Positions 15,200 through 63,610 are shown, numbered from the stretch's first letter. The stretch is DNA of 64,000 bases from Owenia fusiformis (GCA_903813345.2 CAIIXF020000001.1:3286001-3350000); one strand, 5' to 3'. The notes: generated from the sequence alone by a model not told the origin. Program-made: numbers and translations.

Positions 15200-15815
15200 G
15201 GTAAAGTACAGTAAAGTATAATACTGAACAGTACAGTACCATACTATTATGTGCAGTATAGTACAACACCATACAGTACTGTGTAGTACAGTATAGTAAA
15301 ATAGAGTACTTAACGGTATAGTAAAACATCATACATTACTGTGAATAATAGTACAATACCATACAGTATAGTACAATACAATACAGTACTATGCAGTATA
15401 ATACAATATCATACAGTTATGTGTAGTATAGTACAATACAGCAGTGTAGTACAACACTATACAGTACTATGCAGTATAATACAATATCATACAGTTATGT
15501 GTAGTAAAGTACAATACAGCAGTGTAGTACAACACTATACAGTACAGTATAGTACGATACCACACAATACTGTACAGTAGAGTACAATACCATACAGTAC
15601 TATGTAGTATAATACAATACTGTGCAGTATTGTAAAATATCATAAAGTACTATGAAGTACAAAATAGTACAATACCATACAATACTGTGCAGTATAGTGC
15701 AATATCATACAGTACTGTATATAGTAAAACACCATACAATACTTTGCAGTATAGTATAATACAATACCATAGAGTACCGTACAGTATAGTTAGTACAGTA
15801 TAGTATAGTACACTA
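15200..15815. repeat. Degenerate low-complexity tandem repeat (tacag/tatag/tacaa pentamer-based)
   Basis: Repeated catacagtactatgcagtatagtacaatac variants. Confidence 0.85.
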
Positions 15816-16632
15816 CTACCTAAAATATGAATTTGCCATCAACTAGATAAATGGCAATATGAAAGCACCAGAGAAAATGAAAGAACGTTTTGACAGTTTG
15901 ACATGCAATTTAAATGAAAGAAATATAAAATATGTTTATATACAAACACTGAATGTAAATAATAAAATTACAATTCCATGCTATATCCCATAAAAAGTAA
16001 AATTCCAATAAAAGTCATTTAGTTCATTCCTTGTACACGTTGTAGATAAATATCTTATAAAATTCTGTATGAGGAAGATTTGTATTTAAATGAGTTATTA
16101 CATTCTTCCAAGCATAACTGAATAAATAAATTATATAATGATCCAATACTGGTATTCTAGATTTTTTCTGACCAAAAATGTACAAAACTGTACTTGATTG
16201 ACTTAACCTTCTGTTAATATCTAATAAAATAGGCAAACTTAGTTGCATATTTTCCAAATGGGCATGAAATAACAATTTTTTAATTCACATACCCATCTCA
16301 ATGACAATTTAATCTATTCTGACTTTGCATTGTTTTTACAGTATATGCACAAAATATGATAATGAACTGAGATGTACATGAAAAATAGTATGGCTGAATA
16401 ACTCCACCTTTCCCATGCCTGCTGCTACAAAGAGCTCATCATGTCACATGTGTAATTTTTAGTTCATTTTTTGTCCCATTCAAAATTTCAATTGTAATTG
16501 AGAATACATGAAGTGTATAATTATTCAATGCCAATAATAGTATACAATCTTTTGCAAATAAAATTACCCCCAAAATTCAGACATCATTTCAGACATTCCA
16601 CCCATAACCATGAAATAGTATAATTAATCTAA

Positions 16633-17291
16633 TTACAAAATATGCATACTTTGTTTTTCTCCCATCAATCCATCAATATATCCCGTGATTGGATCAATGT
16701 AGTGATGTTCCACTACAGGCTTCATATGTTCATTCATTACAGGCCTCATATGTTCATTTACAGGCCTAATATGTTCACTTACAGGCTTTAAATGTTCACT
16801 TACAGTTACATCATTCATTTCATCAACATTTAGATTCAATAACCTATCAACTTCTTGATTAAGAGCTTTAAGGTCCATTGTCTTTACCCATTTGATTTCC
16901 ATACCTTTGTGCCGATTTCTGCAGTGTTTACGACAATTTCCCCCAGTTTTACATGTAAAATTACAATAGAAACACTTGTAAGGACGAGCCTCTTTATGGA
17001 CATGCATTACACGAATATGAGTTTTCAAATGACTTAGAACACTTGCTTTTAAGCCACATATGGGGCATTGCAAAGTTTTCTCTTTGTGAATCCACTTGAT
17101 GTGTCCTTTAAGATTGTGATCAGAGCTGAATGCCATGCCACAAGCATCACAGACATGTTCTTTAATACCAAGATGACTGTCCATATGCTCCTTGAATCGC
17201 CGCTTTCTCTCTGTAGCGTATTTACATAAGTTACATTCGTACACGATTTGGGTCTCCTTGAGCTTAATGCGATGTTTTGCAAACATATGAT
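16633..17291 (-). CDS. BTB-ZF alternative terminal exon T3
   Basis: Acceptor ttttgcAG|ATCAT, phase 1: (N)HMFAKHRIKLKETQIVYECNLC... with 4 fingers and a PV(S/N)EH repeat tail; stop at 16633. Confidence 0.85.
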
Positions 17292-20200
17292 CTGCAAAAT
17301 GGAGATAAACATGATTTATATATAATAATTATCATAAAGATTAACAAGAGCATCTCCATTCTGCAGAAGTCATAATGTTCCTAAAATGTGCACCATTATA
17401 TTTTTATTCTGTCCCATGATACACATTATGCTCAGTACTCCAGAAGATGATTTTTGTTGAAAATTTTGTTGAAAAAGAAAGAAAACTTGATAAAATTTAT
17501 AACAATCTCTAGTGTCTTTAAAATATTGTCATGGGAAAAAATAAATATACAATGTTTATGCCAAATGTGTAAGTTACAGCGCATGAAAATTCTCAATCTA
17601 AAGCCCATTGCATCCATTGGAGGCTATAAATAAATATAGGGAATTACAACCTTTAGTCCTTCAGCCCACATTCAATAGAAATTCTCAACATTAAAATATA
17701 TAATCACCTAGCTACATCGCAATATTACTACCTGGTAGTTACAGTAAAATAACATCACCGGGCGACAGGAAAATAATATCACCTACTATTCATTGGTAAT
17801 TTCACTTTTGGTGAGATTCACGGCAGTTGTTTGCAACATTTGTGGTTCTTCTATGGGGTCAACTTTGACCCATTTGACTTTGAGACCCTTGTGTTTAATA
17901 TGGCTGTGATTGGCTATATTGTTGCTAAGTGCACATCGATGGTCACAATAGAAACATTTGTAAGGTTTAACACCTTTATGAGTGTGTTGCAAGCGTATGT
18001 GCTTTTTCATATATTTCGGGTCAGCTGCCATGTGGTTACAATAGAGACATTTTATATCTTTTTCACCGTGAACTCGCCGAACATGTTTTTTGAGTTCAGC
18101 ACCTTCTATGAACATTTTCCCACATATTGAGCAAATATGGTCTCTTTCATTTGTGTGATATTTCACATGACGCTTTAAACGTGACGTCAAATCAGTCACA
18201 TATGTACAATGGGGGCACTTGAAAACATGGTGCTTCTTGCGTGTTGTTTCACCATGTAATGCAAACATGTGACCTGCAATGAAAGGAAAGTGGTACTTTG
18301 TTATTCATTCTGTAATGCATGACTGTAGTACAGGCATGAAGGGAAACAATTTAATCTCATAGCATTTGAACATAAGTACCACTTCCCTTTTATTGCAGTT
18401 TATGTCTTAGTTATCATGTTCAGTGACCTGTTTCCTATCATACCTCAAATACAGTCCTCATTGTTGCTTTATTTATTACGTATATTACATCCAACAGGAA
18501 ATATTTTACAGCAAAATCTGTATAACACAAACTTTAAAAATCTCAATGATGTTGGTGTTTTGAAATACACCTGTGCTGTCGACAGTGGGCTTACAAACAT
18601 AACCACTGAATGAAATAAACAGATTACAGGGGTTTTACCACCAGAGCTATGATTTACAGATTTTACAGTATATCGTTAAAACCATGCACTCTCAATGAAC
18701 AGACGAACACATCTTAGTTTAAATGTATACTATTATTATTAGTATTCTTTCGTTTTATACACAACTATTAAAACATGACATGAATCAAAACAAGGAAGAA
18801 TGGTAATATGCGACTCCTAATTTATTAACACATAAGTCAATCATGTTTTATGCCAAGAATGGGGCCTTTGCATATAGTGCCAGTTTGAGCCCGACATGCC
18901 AGGGGCTTGCAATGGAGGTGATGGGATTCTATTGGTGCTCGCAAGTGAAGGATCATCATCATGAGTTATAACTGATGGTTTCTCGGCCGAGAATGAATCA
19001 CCAACTTTTAAACCAATACTGTCAATAGCCATCGTCATATTTTCTTGATTCTTTTGAATATCATTGCCCTTAACCATTGATTTAACTTCATTGTCTTCTT
19101 CCCCAATAGGGAATATTGATGACCTTCCACCCGAGAATGATCCACTTGGCTTAATAACAATACTACTTTCAAGACTTTCTTGAGTTTTGTCTGTGATTTT
19201 GATCCACCTAACCTCTTCATTTTTGTGGCGATTCATGCAATGTTTGCGACAATTCCCAGATGTTGCACATACAAAATTACAATAAAAACACTTATATGGT
19301 TTGTGATTTCTATGAGTGTGCATGATTTTGACATGGTCTTTCAAATGGGTAGTATCATTGGTCACATAATTGCAAAAGTCACAAGTCAGGTTTTTTGGGG
19401 TATGTTTCCATTTTTTATGCTTTCGAAGGGTACGTATTGATATGAACATTTGTCCACAGATATCACAGCTGTACTCTTTGATGCCTCTGTGAGACCTTTG
19501 GTGGTCCTCAAACCTCTGTCGGCGTTCACACGCAAATCCGCAAATCTCACACTCGAAAATAATCATAGTTTGACTCAAAACAATATGGTGAAGAGCAAAC
19601 ATGTGACCTGGAATTTCAAACAAGTTACAATCATTAATACAACGGAGTTTTTATCACTCTGAGCTTCATCTGAAAAATAAAATCTACAAATAAAAGAAAT
19701 CTTAAAAATGAAGAAATATGTGTATGTCTCATCAGTCTCCTCAAAAAAGTGTGAGTTTTTGGTAACCTTGGTAAATGTTCAGTAGTAATGACTAATTCAA
19801 GAGATACTTAAAGGCCCCAGGTAAAATTTACTCCAAAGTATAACATACAGGGTGTCAAATAAGTCCTGTCCCCCATGCTACAGCTTAAACCTTAATAGAT
19901 GGTACCTAGTGTGATATACCATTGGAAAGATCATCCAAAGTTATGTAAAATTACCAACTCTCAAGTATTTTGGATGAAATTCACCTATATTTTCATGATG
20001 TCCTTCATAGTGAGTGTACCCTCAGCTTTTATTGCGTCAAAATGAGAAGGATATGACCTCATAAATATGTCAAAAAGTTAACCTTTTTCGCATTCCACCT
20101 GTTACAAAAAGGTTTTCACCACTTTCCTTGCACCTCTGTTTTCTACACATCTAGCCCTATCCAGAAATAGGTTTAATTTATTGCCATTTACATATGTTGT

Positions 20201-23200
20201 CATCCTTAGGTCCTTTGACTTTTATTATACCCGATTGTTATAATCCTGCCAAATACACCAATTTGCCATGTTTTGAGGCCTATTGACCACAATTTATAAA
20301 ATGTAAAAATTGTGATATTGATTGACATGTATCAGATTTACACCAATCAACGTAGGTTTTGGCTGTAGAGGGGGGGACTTATTTGACACCTTAAAATTGT
20401 ACATCCTAAAATTTACTCCAAACCATGACATTTATTCCTAATTTATATTTTAAGAAAAGATATCAAAGCTTATCCTCATAACACCAATTTTTTTAATGAA
20501 AACAGCAGTTAACTATATTCTGATTTGTGAATAGATAAAGATGAAAAGAAATAGAGGTCATTTTTGCAACTATTACCAGAGAAGGAGACAGTTTTTAGAT
20601 AGGCCTAATAGAGATTATTTCCCTGGCAAAACAGTGTACTTCAGTCCTTTTCAAGCAAAATTCTCTTTAAGCAGATAATTAATTAATCCCCAGGGGCCTT
20701 AATAAGTGGATCACCACCTACTATTAATGTCCAAACAAAAACTTACTCTGGTAGTTTCCCTTGTCTGCTGTAGCATAGCCACAATGTGAGCAGACATGTG
20801 TTTTGGCCCCATGACGTGCCATGTGAGTCTTCAGTTCAGCTTCCTCCCCATAGGATGCCCCACATTGGTCACACATATATGGGCGAATGCCACGATGGAT
20901 TTTGTTCATATGCTTCTCGAGATATCTACAACATTTAAACAGAATATGTTGCCAAAAATTTCAAATACATGGATACCAACATTACTTAATTTTTTACTAA
21001 CAAATTTAACTGTTTAAAATACAGTACAGTAGAACCGGTGTAAGTGGAACACCCTTGGGACAAAAAAAGTGTTCCACTTGGGAGGTGTTCCACTTATAGA
21101 GGCTCATTAACATGGAGCAGATAGGCCATGGGACTTTAAAACACTGTTTCACTTGTGAAGTGTTCCACTTATAGAGGTGTTCCACTTAGCAGGGTCTACT
21201 GTACTTTAATGCATTAAATAATCTTCAAGATCCACCTATTACTTTATTCTCTTGTTTTTACAGTATAAGCTTAATATCTGGGTATAATTGATCATTTTAT
21301 TTATAAGATAGACTTACAGTTCTGTCTTTAATTTTTTTCCACACTCTAAGCAAGTGAACATTTTTCCAGGCATGTGTTTCTGAGCATGCTTCTTCAATGT
21401 ATACTTCTGGGGAGTCTTATAGTTGCAACCAGGTTCAGGACACTCAAATACCTATAAGACAATACAATACAATTTGGGATAAGAAACAAAGAACACTGAT
21501 TTTTTAAAATGGTTTTCAGAATACTGTTGATATTGAGAAATTGGTATTTTTATAAGACTTTAGTATAGTACATGGATAGAGCTTAGAACAATGACCAAAA
21601 TATATTAAAAGAGAAAAAATTATAAACATGTGAGAAATTTTAAGTCTCCTCCTCAACAGGGAGGTTTGATTTAAGTTGAAGCAATAAATATAAGTTACCT
21701 GTAAATCTTCCGATTCTATACCATGTAAGGAGAACTCATGGTGTTTAACATGGTATTTACTGGAGAATGTCTTGTTGCACATTGTACAGGAGTAGGCCTT
21801 CATTCGAATCTGATGTTTACGTGTCATGTGATTCGTTACTTGGGACTCTAAACAGCTGGTGTAAGGACACCTCTGGCAGCTGTGCATCACATCTGGATGA
21901 CAGTCTTTATAATGTTCCTTGAGGTTTGTTTTCCCGATGCATTCAAATACACAGCCAGCTTCTTCACATTTCTGTCCTCCTGATATCCCGTTAAAGTCCA
22001 CGCCATGAATTTCCCTACGATGTACCCCTAAATGCTGTCTCTTGAGGAATGTTTTGGGGCAATCGTTGCATTTATATGGTTTTTCTGTTCCATCATAAGC
22101 AGGGATCTGGGCAATTCCATGATTCGCTGCTAAGTGAGAACGCAACTTTGTTCGTTTTGTGAACAATTCATGGCACTCTGTACACACAAAAGGTGTCTTG
22201 AAATGTTGGTTTACCTTTTCTGACCATTTATCAGCCAAATTATCTGGAACGTAATGTATACCTTTCATATGATCCTTCATATATTTCTTGTCACTGAATG
22301 ACTTTTTGCAATATTTACATGGGAATGGTTTTAGCATAATTTCAGAGTGTCTTTGTGAAATGTGTACTGCCAGGACTTTTTCATTTAGGGTTCTATGTGG
22401 ACAAAAGTAACATTTGTAGTAGTGGGGTTTACTCCTCTTCCTCCCCCGTTCTCTCCTCGTTCTAGATTTCTTCGGAATCTCCTTGTGCTTTAAATGCTCA
22501 TGTACTTTCAGGTGAAAGAAGCTCATAAAGGTTGGGAGTTTGGGACATTTTGTACATTTCACAAGGCGTCTGTGCACCTTAGTACAATGTTGTTTGAGGG
22601 ACGTGTGGTATGCGAATGCACCAAGGCAGATATTGCACTTTGGTGGTGGGCCTTCACTGACTGCAAGAGCTACTTGCGTCTGTCTCAGAGCCCTGGCTAA
22701 TAACAACCTACACCTGACACTCTGCCTGTAGACAAACTTGTGTTCTTGCTGGATGTGAAGTTTCACTGTGGCAGCGTGTGGGAACCCTTTATCGCAGTAG
22801 CTACACATGAATGGTCGAGGAAGGGGTTTAGGTTTTAGAAACTGAATTTGCGGGAGTTTGTCCCATTGTTTATATTTAGGCTTTATATTCTCATCTAATT
22901 TCTTTATCTTGATTTTGAGGGTTTTCAGCTTTGGCTTAGCTTTTGATGAACCTTTTGATTTCTTCCCTGTATAATGAGACACCATTTCAAATTCTGCTTG
23001 TTGGTCAACCTTCCTTGGACGACCACGCTTCCGTTTGGATTTGACTGGCTCGACAGGGGTCAAATCAGAAAGGGGCATCCAATCATTGTCACTAAAGTGA
23101 TCCTGCTCATTGTAAGTATCATTCATATCTGGTTCTGCCTCACTGAACACCTCTTGCTTGATGGCAATTTTTGATTTCGGGGTAAGGTCACTTCTTGGGG

Positions 23201-24324
23201 GGTGTGAGGATTGGGGACTTGATGGTTGGGGCTGCCCACTAAAAGGGATGGAAGGATATTCTTGGGTGGTCTGTGTAGAGGCAACTGACATCTCTATTAT
23301 CTTGGCTATTGAAGACTTTCTCTAAAATAAAAAAGTAATAATAATTTTTCAAATTGATTTTTCGAGATACTCAACACTGGGAGCATATTTATTTACACTT
23401 TTGGTGCAGGGTAAATTCAAATATTCTTCTAAACAGAATGCGAAAATTGCTTCAGTGCGAGGAATTCTATTTATATATCTGTTATTCATTTCATCATCAA
23501 CTATGTTAAATATATATCTGATTTTAATATGAAATGAATTCAGAAATGCATTAAAATGAATGTAATACCTGCTCTACATCACTAACAGCAGCACTCTCAG
23601 TCAGGACAGCTTGTTGTGGGAAGACAGGGCCTTCAGTTGTCTTACGAACATACTCCTCACATAGCTTCTTAGCAGCCTGAATGTCCAGTTGTTCAGCTGT
23701 GTTCTTCACTCCCCATACATTAGACTTGTTAAGCATCATTGAGCCAGTGTAGAGGAAATCCAAGAGCTGGTTAACATGGGTTGGGTTGAGGCCTAAGGGG
23801 AAATAAAAATCAATACATAAGTGATATTTTATACATGTATTATGTATAGACCATAGAGTGTGAATATGCAATTTTCTCATCACTTTCTCAAAAATGTTGA
23901 CATGTTTTATTGTAGCATTTAAAAATGTATCCAGTGAAAAACATTGTCTTTGAGAGTAAATATTTAGTCAATTGCTTTGCAAAAATATTCATTTTTATAG
24001 ACAGTACTTACTCATCCCTCAACAAAAATTTACTTTATTTTCACACAGGTGTTGACAATATTGGACAGCCCCCTTCCCCATAATCCTTTTAATTTTGTAT
24101 TCTTTACCTGGCAAATCATATCTGTTGACGAAGAGCATGCCTTGATCAAGAAGTGTTTTGAAATAACCAGACCCACTGACTAGCATTACTTTGTGCAGAT
24201 GGAATTCCACATAGCCACCAATTACAAGCGTGATGTCACAAAGAAGTTGACGCTTGTACAGGCTGTTCACTACAGGGAGCAACTCTGTTGGGAAGTCTGA
24301 TGATGTCATTAACTGCTCATCCAT
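16633..24324 (-). CDS. BTB/POZ + AT-hook + multi-C2H2 zinc-finger protein (ZBTB-like). Constant exons 24324-24108, 23792-23569, 23321-21699, 21451-21318, 20925-20747, then one of three alternative terminal exons
   Basis: BTB motifs LCDITLVIGG..FHLHKVMLVSGSGYF and LLDFLYTGSM..AEQLDI; AT-hook KRKRGRPRK; more than 10 C2H2 fingers. All introns are GT-AG with consistent phases (1,0,0,2,1). Confidence 0.9.
17786..18273 (-). CDS. BTB-ZF alternative terminal exon T2
   Basis: Acceptor ttgcAG|GTCAC, phase 1: (S)HMFALHGETTRKKHHVFKCPHC... with 4 fingers; stop at 17786; AATAAA at 17408-17403. Confidence 0.85.
18841..19607 (-). CDS. BTB-ZF alternative terminal exon T1 (completes the split finger, adds 4 C2H2 fingers and a ~110-aa tail)
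   Basis: Acceptor ttccAG|GTCAC, phase 1: (S)HMFALHHIVLSQTMIIFECEIC...; stop at 18841; AATAAA at 18826-18821. Confidence 0.85.
19848..20390. mobile_element. Degenerate Tc1/mariner-type MITE in the intron before T1
   Basis: (ta)cagggtgtcaaataagtcc...cccc versus ggggggacttatttgacacc. Confidence 0.55.
21027..21201. mobile_element. pogo/Tigger-like MITE; relatives at 62286-63143 and 38255-38315
   Basis: TA|CAGTAGAACC...GGTCTACTG|TA with repeated gtgttccactt motifs. Confidence 0.8.
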
Positions 24325-24945
24325 TGTGATTTTTTAATATTCTCACAGCAATCTGGAATAAGAATTATACTTCATATTATGGTCATGTCAAGAAACAAGT
24401 GTGTAAATCTATTACATATACAACATGTTATGCCTGGGTCACATTTGCTCCGATCCATCTGCCAGCGCCTGGCCGATTGAGTGTTTTGTTCAATATTGTA
24501 TTCAATCTTGAACAAAATACTCAATCAGCCGGGCGCCATAGTGAAAATCGGAGCAAATGTTACCAAGATATTAACAAGCAACTCAAGTAGCTTTAATCAG
24601 CCAATCTGTATTGCTAATGAGTTTGCCCCCATTGCTCATCTCCTTAGCGAGACGGAAAATATTGGTACGGAGGGGACAGTATCAGCAGCAATACTGAGAA
24701 TACAGAATATTTCCTCTTAGGAATGATCTCCCAGGTAAAATGTATTGACCTAAGATCATATGATAAAAATGTTATAGAATGATCTGTACTCTGTAGTGCA
24801 ATACAGGATGTATTCTGCTCTCGATATTCTCAATTTCGTCTCGTTCCAATACAGAATTTCTTCAAATTATCAAACAAATTATTCAATAAGGTATGATTGG
24901 CAGTCGTATGTCTATGTCAATAATCTGCAAAATGCTAATAAGCCC

Positions 24946-39713: not shown

Positions 39714-63610
<23,897 letters not shown>

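What the first reader, a model, noticed from the sequence alone, without database searches (positions are those of the whole stretch)
17291..17367. A second, sequence-unrelated hairpin buries the T3 acceptor
Seen: transcript UCUGCAGAAUGGAGAU (17367-17352) pairs fully with AUCUCCAUUUUGCAG|A (17306-17291), 16 bp including one G-U, covering the T3 acceptor. An AATAAA (17408-17403, candidate T2 signal) lies ~35 nt upstream of the stem. I found no comparable local stem at the proximal T1 acceptor. Inference: two different hairpins at the equivalent position of both distal exons, each tolerating G-U, suggest selection for RNA structure rather than chance.
Basis: partly seen in the sequence, partly recalled or inferred. 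Interest (0 to 1): 0.75.

Follow-up and report, generated by a model that had tools for sequence, protein, structure and literature searches.

The report
Hairpin hiding a worm splice acceptor
In a marine worm's zinc-finger gene with three interchangeable last exons, the entry site of the last exon is predicted to be folded into a strong RNA hairpin, one of four neighbouring stems that may together set which protein ending is made; function is untested.

Summary
The stem is real and longer than reported: 27 pairs (17380-17351 with 17307-17281) over the pyrimidine tract, the AG and 11 nt of exon T3 of an Owenia fusiformis BTB zinc-finger gene. It scores -29.2 kcal/mol; 0 of 23 annotated and 0 of 41 predicted acceptors reach this, and it ranks 16 of 2303 acceptor-like sites. 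The arms are single-copy; T1 has no stem. Two further stems were missed. One buries the AATAAA at 17408 (most buried of 164). The other crosses the T2 mask and forms first. RNA depth does not drop after that AATAAA, so it is not the main T2 end in these samples. Depth steps suggest about a third of messages use T3 despite the stem; T3 junction reads were not displayed. All 8 listed T2/T3 coding variants are synonymous. Best reading: local masks that damp the distal acceptors on a read-through pre-mRNA (0.45). The G-U argument is weak, strong stems occur every ~2 kb here, and a distant homologue lacks the stem; covariation could not be tested. The scan noted the T2/T3 masks before only on this window. 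New variant of a known kind.

The parts
17351..17380 (-).
   Evidence: region single-copy in G000
17281..17307 (-). D': pyrimidine tract, AG (17293-17292) and first 11 nt of T3, all paired with D
   Evidence: cost to open the last 20 intron nt 23.8 kcal/mol
17308..17350 (-). Loop of the T3 hairpin with three candidate branch-point motifs (17345, 17336, 17333)
   Evidence: motif scan only; not mapped
17403..17408 (-). AATAAA after T2, buried in stem C-C'; no fall of RNA depth after it
17529..17563 (-). C: U-rich upstream arm of the stem over the AATAAA
   Evidence: (I17)
17387..17419 (-). C': arm holding the AATAAA; ends a few bases before arm D
18369..18398 (-). B: upstream arm of the T2 acceptor mask, holds an AATAAA (18394-18389)
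   Evidence: (I13)
18274..18302 (-). B': T2 pyrimidine tract and AG
18428..18456 (-). A: upstream arm of the stem that crosses B-B' (order A, B, A', B'); starts about 12 nt after AATAAATAAA 18477-18468
   Evidence: (I18)
18321..18349 (-). A': arm ending in an out-of-frame decoy acceptor (exon would start at 18322, 49 nt before T2)
16633..17291 (-). T3 terminal exon (4 zinc fingers plus the end of the split finger); its ORF from Met is annotated as a separate 217-aa protein
   Evidence: 3 of 3 listed variants synonymous
17786..18273 (-). T2 terminal exon
   Evidence: 5 of 5 listed variants synonymous
18841..19607 (-). T1 terminal exon, the annotated form (P0001); acceptor unmasked
18821..18826 (-). 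AATAAA just after the T1 stop; RNA depth falls by a fifth to over half across this area
   Evidence: bins 18856-19046 against 18665-18855
20747..20925 (-). Last shared exon; ends in half a C2H2 finger, phase-1 donor at 20746
21318..24324 (-). Upstream shared exons (BTB domain and zinc fingers): 24324-24108, 23792-23569, 23321-21699, 21451-21318

Best explanation
The stem is a local RNA mask on the most distal of three duplicated alternative last exons, and one of four single-copy stems in the two spacers. Internal poly(A) signals are partly or mostly read through (the one after T2 is itself buried), so one pre-mRNA carries all three acceptors. The masks damp T2 and T3, probably by keeping U2AF off the pyrimidine tract and AG while the branch point stays in the loop. 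They so set the share of the three zinc-finger endings and keep unused acceptors quiet. T3 is used when its stem is opened or kept from forming by a protein or helicase. Shown: sequence, predicted folds, statistics, continuous RNA cover. Inferred: T2/T3 use (from depth steps and synonymous variants). Not shown: that the stem forms in cells, that it lowers use, or what opens it.
For: Acceptor-by-upstream duplex: T3 -29.2, T2 -37.3, T1 -10.4; 23 annotated acceptors -6.2 to -16.2; 22 of 2303 acceptor-like sites reach -28; 41 predicted acceptors of other zinc-finger exon rows reach at best -25.1. Opening cost T3 23.8, T2 13.2, annotated 3.6-11.1 kcal/mol. Among all 40-nt window pairs in 20960-15850 the best duplexes are a repeat's inverted ends, then B-B', D-D', A-A'. 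Arms are single-copy. AATAAA 17408 is the hardest to open of 164. Stranded RNA covers both spacers (6.2/7.7/6.0 before T2; 16.8/14.1/5.1 before T3) while the shared intron next to T1 is at 0.29/0/0; the shared exon (31.8/32.1/27.6) exceeds T1 (17.4/17.2/18.9) by about what the steps at T2 (+3.3/+3.8/+4.4) and T3 (+10.7/+10.8/+10.5) add (my arithmetic). 8 of 8 listed coding variants in T2 and T3 are synonymous. Masking of splice sites and of AAUAAA by hairpins is established (PMC9198270 passages; PMC8052449 passages; PMC2645353 abstract).
Against: T3 seems used in about a third of messages although it has the highest opening cost, and T2, cheaper to open, is used less; a plain repressor does not explain this. 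Junction rows for donor 20746 to T1, T2 or T3 were not among the 15 joints shown (111 hidden), and depth steps are confounded by G+C and 3' bias at depths of 5-40. Strong local stems are common here: 110 clusters in 214 kb. G-U strand bias is only 9 against 3. 0 of 9 listed spacer variants fall in arms, but that has p about 0.09 and 392 rows were hidden. The homologous acceptors in L051 and L052 have no stem (-12.8, -14.8).
Confidence: 0.45

Rival explanations
1. Neutral relic: arm D is an inverted copy of the T3 intron-exon junction made by local template switching or fold-back duplication, with no selected RNA role.
For: D mirrors the junction, exon bases included, at 24 Watson-Crick pairs of 27. 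Strong stems occur about every 2 kb in this genome. The T2 stem has no strand preference. No stem in L051/L052. T3 appears well used.
Against: It must have happened at both distal acceptors (ranks 6 and 16 of 2303), at a decoy AG and at the most buried of 164 AATAAA, all within 1.06 kb and in single-copy DNA. The exons are old (37% and 51% identical to T1) and the spacers show no clear homology (best 6 of 200 shuffles). Three of four stems fold 4.5-6.9 kcal/mol better on the transcribed strand.
Confidence: 0.2
2. Safeguard, not dial: T1- and T2-spliced messages run on to the end after T3, so the distal acceptors stay in a 3' UTR. The stems hide them there to stop stray splicing after the stop codon, which would trigger decay.
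For: Continuous stranded cover of both spacers, including the T3 loop (depth 23/15/7 at 17320). Only acceptors that can end up in a UTR are masked. The decoy AG at 18322 is masked too. Complementary regions are enriched at cryptic and inactive splice sites in human (PMC8052449, passages).
Against: The same stem forms in the pre-mRNA as soon as the acceptor is made, so it would affect choice as well. The reads may include unprocessed RNA; the library record does not say poly(A) selection.
Confidence: 0.15
3. Positive or other structural role: the hairpin presents the branch point or binds a factor and so helps T3 compete from far away; or it acts after splicing (localisation or stability element in the long UTR, or a 5'-tailed-mirtron-like hairpin ending at the AG).
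For: T3 is used more than T2 by depth steps and is the copy closest to the outgroup (23 of 41 residues against 16 and 14). Candidate branch motifs lie in the loop. The intron-only fold ends exactly at the AG (-25.5).
Against: Pairing over the tract and AG is inhibitory in known cases (own knowledge; MBNL1/U2AF65 case in PMC9198270, passage). The intron-only stem is 16 bp with a 43-nt loop, short for a Dicer substrate (own knowledge). 0 Rfam matches at E up to 1 in 16000-21000.
Confidence: 0.13
4. Docking-site/selector competition as in Drosophila PGRP-LC: one site near the shared donor pairs in turn with elements before each exon.
For: Same gene layout (tandem 3' cassettes). One duplex of -30.9 between the donor region and 18648-18601, with an 11-bp core.
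Against: Each arm's best partner is its local one, by 6-19 kcal/mol. B and D are unlike each other and share no partner near the donor. Donor-region duplexes lie in the continuous tail of scores.
Confidence: 0.05

Closest known systems
Local hairpins that hide a splice site (MAPT exon 10, chicken beta-tropomyosin exon 6B, TNNT2 exon 5, yeast APE2; PMC9198270, passages read)
   Same: A short-range stem covers a core splice signal of an alternative exon and would need a helicase or protein to open.
   Different: Here two of three duplicated last exons each carry their own unrelated 27-28-bp mask, flanked by stems over a poly(A) signal and a decoy acceptor. No functional test exists.
Competing RNA pairings at 3' variable regions: Drosophila PGRP-LC, CG42235, Pip (PMC6191721; abstract, introduction and passages read)
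   Same: Tandem duplicated 3' cassettes spliced to a common exon, with RNA pairing proposed to set the choice and coupled to 3' end formation.
   Different: There one docking site pairs with selectors and activates the next acceptor. Here no docking site stands out and the stems are local and cover the acceptors.
HIV-1 polyA hairpin (PMC2645353, abstract read)
   Same: AAUAAA inside a stem, with read-through as the predicted result (stem C-C').
   Different: Cellular gene; the stem sits next to an acceptor mask; repression is inferred only from the lack of a depth drop.
Drosophila lola and mod(mdg4) (PMC13490949, search listing only; the rest recalled)
   Same: BTB protein with common N-terminal exons and alternative C-terminal zinc-finger exons.
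   Different: Only three variants, each completing a finger split by the intron; no sign of trans-splicing was sought or seen; orthology not tested.
[quoted passage not shown]
   Same: RNA structure couples last-exon choice and poly(A) site use.
   Different: Recalled as one long-range pairing; here four local stems.

Membership tests
Splice-site-masking regulatory hairpin | Stable stem covers the pyrimidine tract and AG, beyond background | tested here: met
Splice-site-masking regulatory hairpin | The acceptor is alternatively used | tested here: inconclusive
   depth steps and synonymous variants favour use; junction rows were not displayed
Splice-site-masking regulatory hairpin | Conserved pairing or covariation | tested here: inconclusive
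   no close relative held; distant L051/L052 lack a stem but have another exon layout; 0 of 9 listed variants in arms, p about 0.09
Splice-site-masking regulatory hairpin | Disruption changes use and compensatory repair restores it | not testable with these tools
   needs minigene or antisense work
Docking-site/selector system (Dscam1, PGRP-LC type) | One docking site complementary to similar selectors before each exon | tested here: not met
Docking-site/selector system (Dscam1, PGRP-LC type) | Tandem duplicated, frame-compatible exons | tested here: met
Poly(A)-signal-occluding hairpin (HIV-1 type) | AAUAAA base-paired in a stable stem | tested here: met
   rank 1 of 164; z -4.08
Poly(A)-signal-occluding hairpin (HIV-1 type) | The signal works when the stem is opened | not testable with these tools
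   only the lack of a depth drop is seen; the hexamer may never be functional
Transposon or repeat-derived inverted repeat | Further copies in the genome | tested here: not met
   1 match for 17270-17600, only self and mirror for 18260-18500 (the search skips very common words); contig depth 53-140 against over 10000 at intronic repeats
5'-tailed mirtron | Hairpin ending at the AG with a duplex of about 21 bp | tested here: not met
   16-bp intron-only stem, 43-nt loop; length rule recalled
5'-tailed mirtron | Small-RNA reads from the arms | not tested
   no small-RNA run was laid

The most novel reading that the evidence does not exclude
The four stems form an interlocked, co-transcriptional relay for last-exon choice. 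A-A' forms first, traps arm B and leaves the T2 acceptor open for a time before B-B' (13 kcal/mol more stable) closes it. C-C' hides the T2 poly(A) signal so that the RNA reaches T3. D-D' gates T3. This would be an attenuator-like logic built only of local, unrelated hairpins, unlike docking/selector systems, and evolved in an annelid.
Probability: 0.2. Interest if true: 0.75.

Novelty: new variant of a known kind. Interest (0 to 1): 0.52.

Why it matters
How one of several duplicated last exons is chosen is known in detail mainly from Drosophila docking/selector cases. A 1.3-kb unit with separate masks on two acceptors, a poly(A) signal and a decoy AG would be a second design, small enough for a minigene with compensatory mutations. 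It would swap four and a half DNA-binding fingers of a transcription factor. It also shows that the annotation splits the gene: T3 is filed as its own protein and the exact T2 ORF is not in the collection. If the stems are neutral, the case still tells how long inverted copies of splice junctions can persist without silencing an exon.

Tried and rejected
Orthologue search: T1 as query found only P0001; P0001 residues 600-1047 found only generic zinc-finger proteins of 21-29% identity; a T1/T2/T3 profile was swamped by long zinc-finger proteins. No T2 or T3 isoform protein turned up. No further T-like exon in G000 beyond the three (only 150 of 1983 candidates scored). Searching the records behind L051/L052 was not possible. 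Rfam: 0 matches. No RNA holder was listed in the index; the RNA runs came by species label. Laying reads over 15800-21500 with a contig run let intronic repeats crowd the tables, so the decisive junction rows and 392 variant rows stayed hidden. A position-weight score for T1 is circular (T1 was in the training set) and is not used. The outgroup comparison was in the wrong frame and was redone. In one search the window ended before arm B', so its value for AATAAA 18394 (0.0) is an artefact; one search gives 0.2 unpaired. A long-range duplex 18724-18685 x 17204-17160 (-30.2, rank 5) lies in the continuous tail and was set aside. A shift to the next free AG in T3 was considered: by my count the next three AGs are 29, 35 and 38 nt on, all out of frame. 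A-to-I editing in the stems could not be judged from the rows shown.

Full report
Gene. The window holds a minus-strand BTB plus C2H2 zinc-finger gene. Its annotated protein P0001 (1047 aa) is named Owenia fusiformis by the sources, an annelid. Mapping P0001 gives five shared exons and the donor at 20746 spliced to T1 at 19607. The last shared exon ends in half a finger. T1, T2 (18273) and T3 (17291) each follow a YAG, complete that finger in frame and add four fingers. T2 and T3 are 37% and 51% identical to T1. The T3 ORF from its Met is filed as a separate 217-aa protein; the exact T2 ORF is not in the collection. A search of G000 found no fourth copy, with 150 of 1983 candidates scored.

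Observation. The stem extends to 27 pairs, 17380-17351 (D) with 17307-17281 (D'), -33.7 kcal/mol, over the tract, the AG and 11 exon bases. The fold has z -3.68; T2's has z -6.05; T1's has z +0.68. With the acceptor fixed and the upstream 170 nt shuffled, 0 of 2000 reach T3 or T2, 1875 of 2000 reach T1.

Background. I scored each acceptor (-25 to +5) against the 170 nt upstream. T3 gave -29.2 and T2 -37.3. The 23 annotated acceptors (18 of the neighbouring phosphofructokinase gene, 4 shared, T1) gave -6.2 to -16.2. Of 2303 acceptor-like YAG sites on both strands of the DNA fetched (707 kb of strand length), 22 reach -28. T3 ranks 16 and T2 6; three of the 15 above T3 belong to this locus, and several others are G/C runs or palindromes. 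41 acceptors predicted by me in other zinc-finger exon rows on C2 reach at best -25.1. Opening the last 20 intron bases costs 23.8 kcal/mol for T3, 13.2 for T2 and 3.6-11.1 for the annotated set. Against this: strong local stems as such are common, 110 clusters in 214 kb, so only their position on the signals is unusual. The arms have no other copy in G000.

More stems. C-C' (17563-17529 with 17419-17387; z -4.08) holds the AATAAA at 17408, the hardest to open of 164 on this strand of 124 kb (7.8 kcal/mol, median 0.8), and ends just before D. A-A' (18456-18428 with 18349-18321; z -3.20, 1 of 200 shuffles) crosses the T2 mask B-B' and covers an out-of-frame decoy acceptor at 18322. In folds of growing transcripts A-A' is the best structure until the T2 acceptor is complete; then B-B' wins by about 13 kcal/mol. 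Among all 40-nt window pairs from 20960 to 15850 the best duplexes are the inverted ends of an intronic repeat, then B-B', D-D' and A-A'; C-C' is 21st. No docking site near the donor stands out.

RNA. Three stranded raw runs (6-12% of each read) and one contig set were laid on 15800-21500. Depth is 31.8/32.1/27.6 on the shared exon, 0.29/0/0 in the intron before T1, and 17.4/17.2/18.9 at the start of T1. It falls near the AATAAA after the T1 stop (19.4/12.1/14.1 to 7.9/9.7/9.7), stays at 6.2/7.7/6.0 just before T2, and rises by 3.3/3.8/4.4 in T2. It is 18.3/11.3/7.3 and 16.8/14.1/5.1 in the two bins before T3 and rises by 10.7/10.8/10.5 in T3. Read as shares of the shared exon this is about 54-68% T1, 10-16% T2 and 34-38% T3. 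This is inference from bins: the 15 joints shown include 20925-21318 (31/24/25 reads) but none from donor 20746, and 111 were hidden. G+C and 3' bias may add to the steps, and an own start for T3 is not excluded. Depth is 13/14/5 at 17435 and 23/15/7 at 17320, so there is no fall after the AATAAA at 17408. The hairpins are thus present in abundant RNA that has passed T1 or T2.

Selection. Of the 40 variant rows shown (392 hidden), all 8 in T2 and T3 coding sequence are synonymous (3 of 5 in T1), so both exons look translated. None of the 9 shown in the two spacers lies in an arm (p about 0.09). G-U pairs number 9 on the transcribed strand against 3 on the other; three stems fold 4.5-6.9 kcal/mol better as transcribed, B-B' does not. 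This is suggestive only. A scan of metagenome contigs gave two unnamed animal-like contigs with the same split finger and phase-1 intron (L051) or the same exon start (L052). Their 41 residues match T3 at 23, T1 at 16 and T2 at 14, so T3 is the least changed copy. Their acceptors have no stem (-12.8, -14.8). The L051 exon follows the donor directly, as T1 does, and is cut by a further intron, so this neither shows nor excludes conservation in close relatives.

Mechanism. Most likely (0.45) the stem is a local mask. Read-through puts all three acceptors on one pre-mRNA, and the masks damp the distal two and set the mix of finger sets. The main difficulty is that T3 seems well used under the strongest mask, which calls for an opener that I cannot name. 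Rivals: neutral inverted copy (0.2), safeguard of acceptors left in long 3' UTRs (0.15), a positive or post-splicing role (0.13), docking/selector pairing (0.05).

Known systems. Hairpins over splice signals are well known (PMC9198270, passages on MAPT, tropomyosin, TNNT2, APE2), and complementary regions are enriched at inactive and cryptic sites in human (PMC8052449, passages). Tandem 3' cassettes under RNA pairing are known from Drosophila PGRP-LC, where a docking site activates acceptors (PMC6191721; abstract, introduction, passages); that design is not met here. Occlusion of AAUAAA is known from HIV-1 (PMC2645353, abstract). Tandem exon duplication is common (PMC9013439, first quarter of the text). 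BTB genes with variable zinc-finger ends recall mod(mdg4) and lola (PMC13490949, listing only; otherwise recalled). Searches listed no paper on this gene or on such a set of stems in an annelid; they cover open-licence papers only, and no supplements were read.

Earlier notes. e1-7142767 reached the same reading of the two masks on this window, and e1-7142766 describes the cassette. I had formed my reading before seeing them. That note plays down polyadenylation; C-C' and the read-through argue that 3' end control is part of the picture. No such finding on other DNA was returned.

Verdict. Real, well above background, part of a larger structured unit, function unproven. New variant of a known kind; interest 0.52.

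Noticed in passing
G000:C2 34.33-34.39 Mb and 34.625-34.665 Mb (L031-L038), also C2 9.69-9.70 Mb (L039): Dozens of short minus-strand ORFs, each a pyrimidine-rich phase-1 acceptor followed by 2-11 C2H2 fingers and a stop (41 acceptors predicted in 90 kb sampled). They look like very large lola/mod(mdg4)-style rows of alternative last exons in an annelid; the common exons were not located. Their acceptors lack masking stems.
   Followed up: partly
window 58073-58169 and about 59170-59291, minus strand: The phosphofructokinase gene has, besides the annotated exon at 58169, an upstream frame with a PFK-like stretch (ORF 58992-59291) that may be a duplicated, mutually exclusive exon.
   Followed up: no
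window 24465-24536: A 34-bp hairpin with a 4-nt loop (88% complementary, about -48 kcal/mol) lies 140 nt before the gene's start codon, in the 5' UTR or first intron.
   Followed up: no
window 19841-20405 and 21060-21190: High-copy repeats in shared introns; the first has inverted ends (-50.8 kcal/mol) that would shorten the donor-to-T1 intron by about 560 nt when paired.
   Followed up: partly
window 19607, 18273: T1 and T2 both begin with GU after the AG, so the spliced junction re-creates a weak donor-like sequence; re-splicing was not tested.
   Followed up: no
window 16705-16798: T3's tail carries four 21-24-nt tandem repeats coding for a short repeated peptide; a 10-nt insertion allele lies at 16575 in the 3' UTR.
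   Followed up: no
window 15800-16313: RNA depth continues to 15800, past the two ATTAAA at 16313 and 16284, towards a partly palindromic tandem repeat (15200-15820); the true 3' end was not seen.
   Followed up: no
L051 1-450 and 1470-1720; L052 835-970: The distant homologue shows repeated partial copies of exon starts, and a near-identical second copy of the T-like exon with a different upstream intron.
   Followed up: partly
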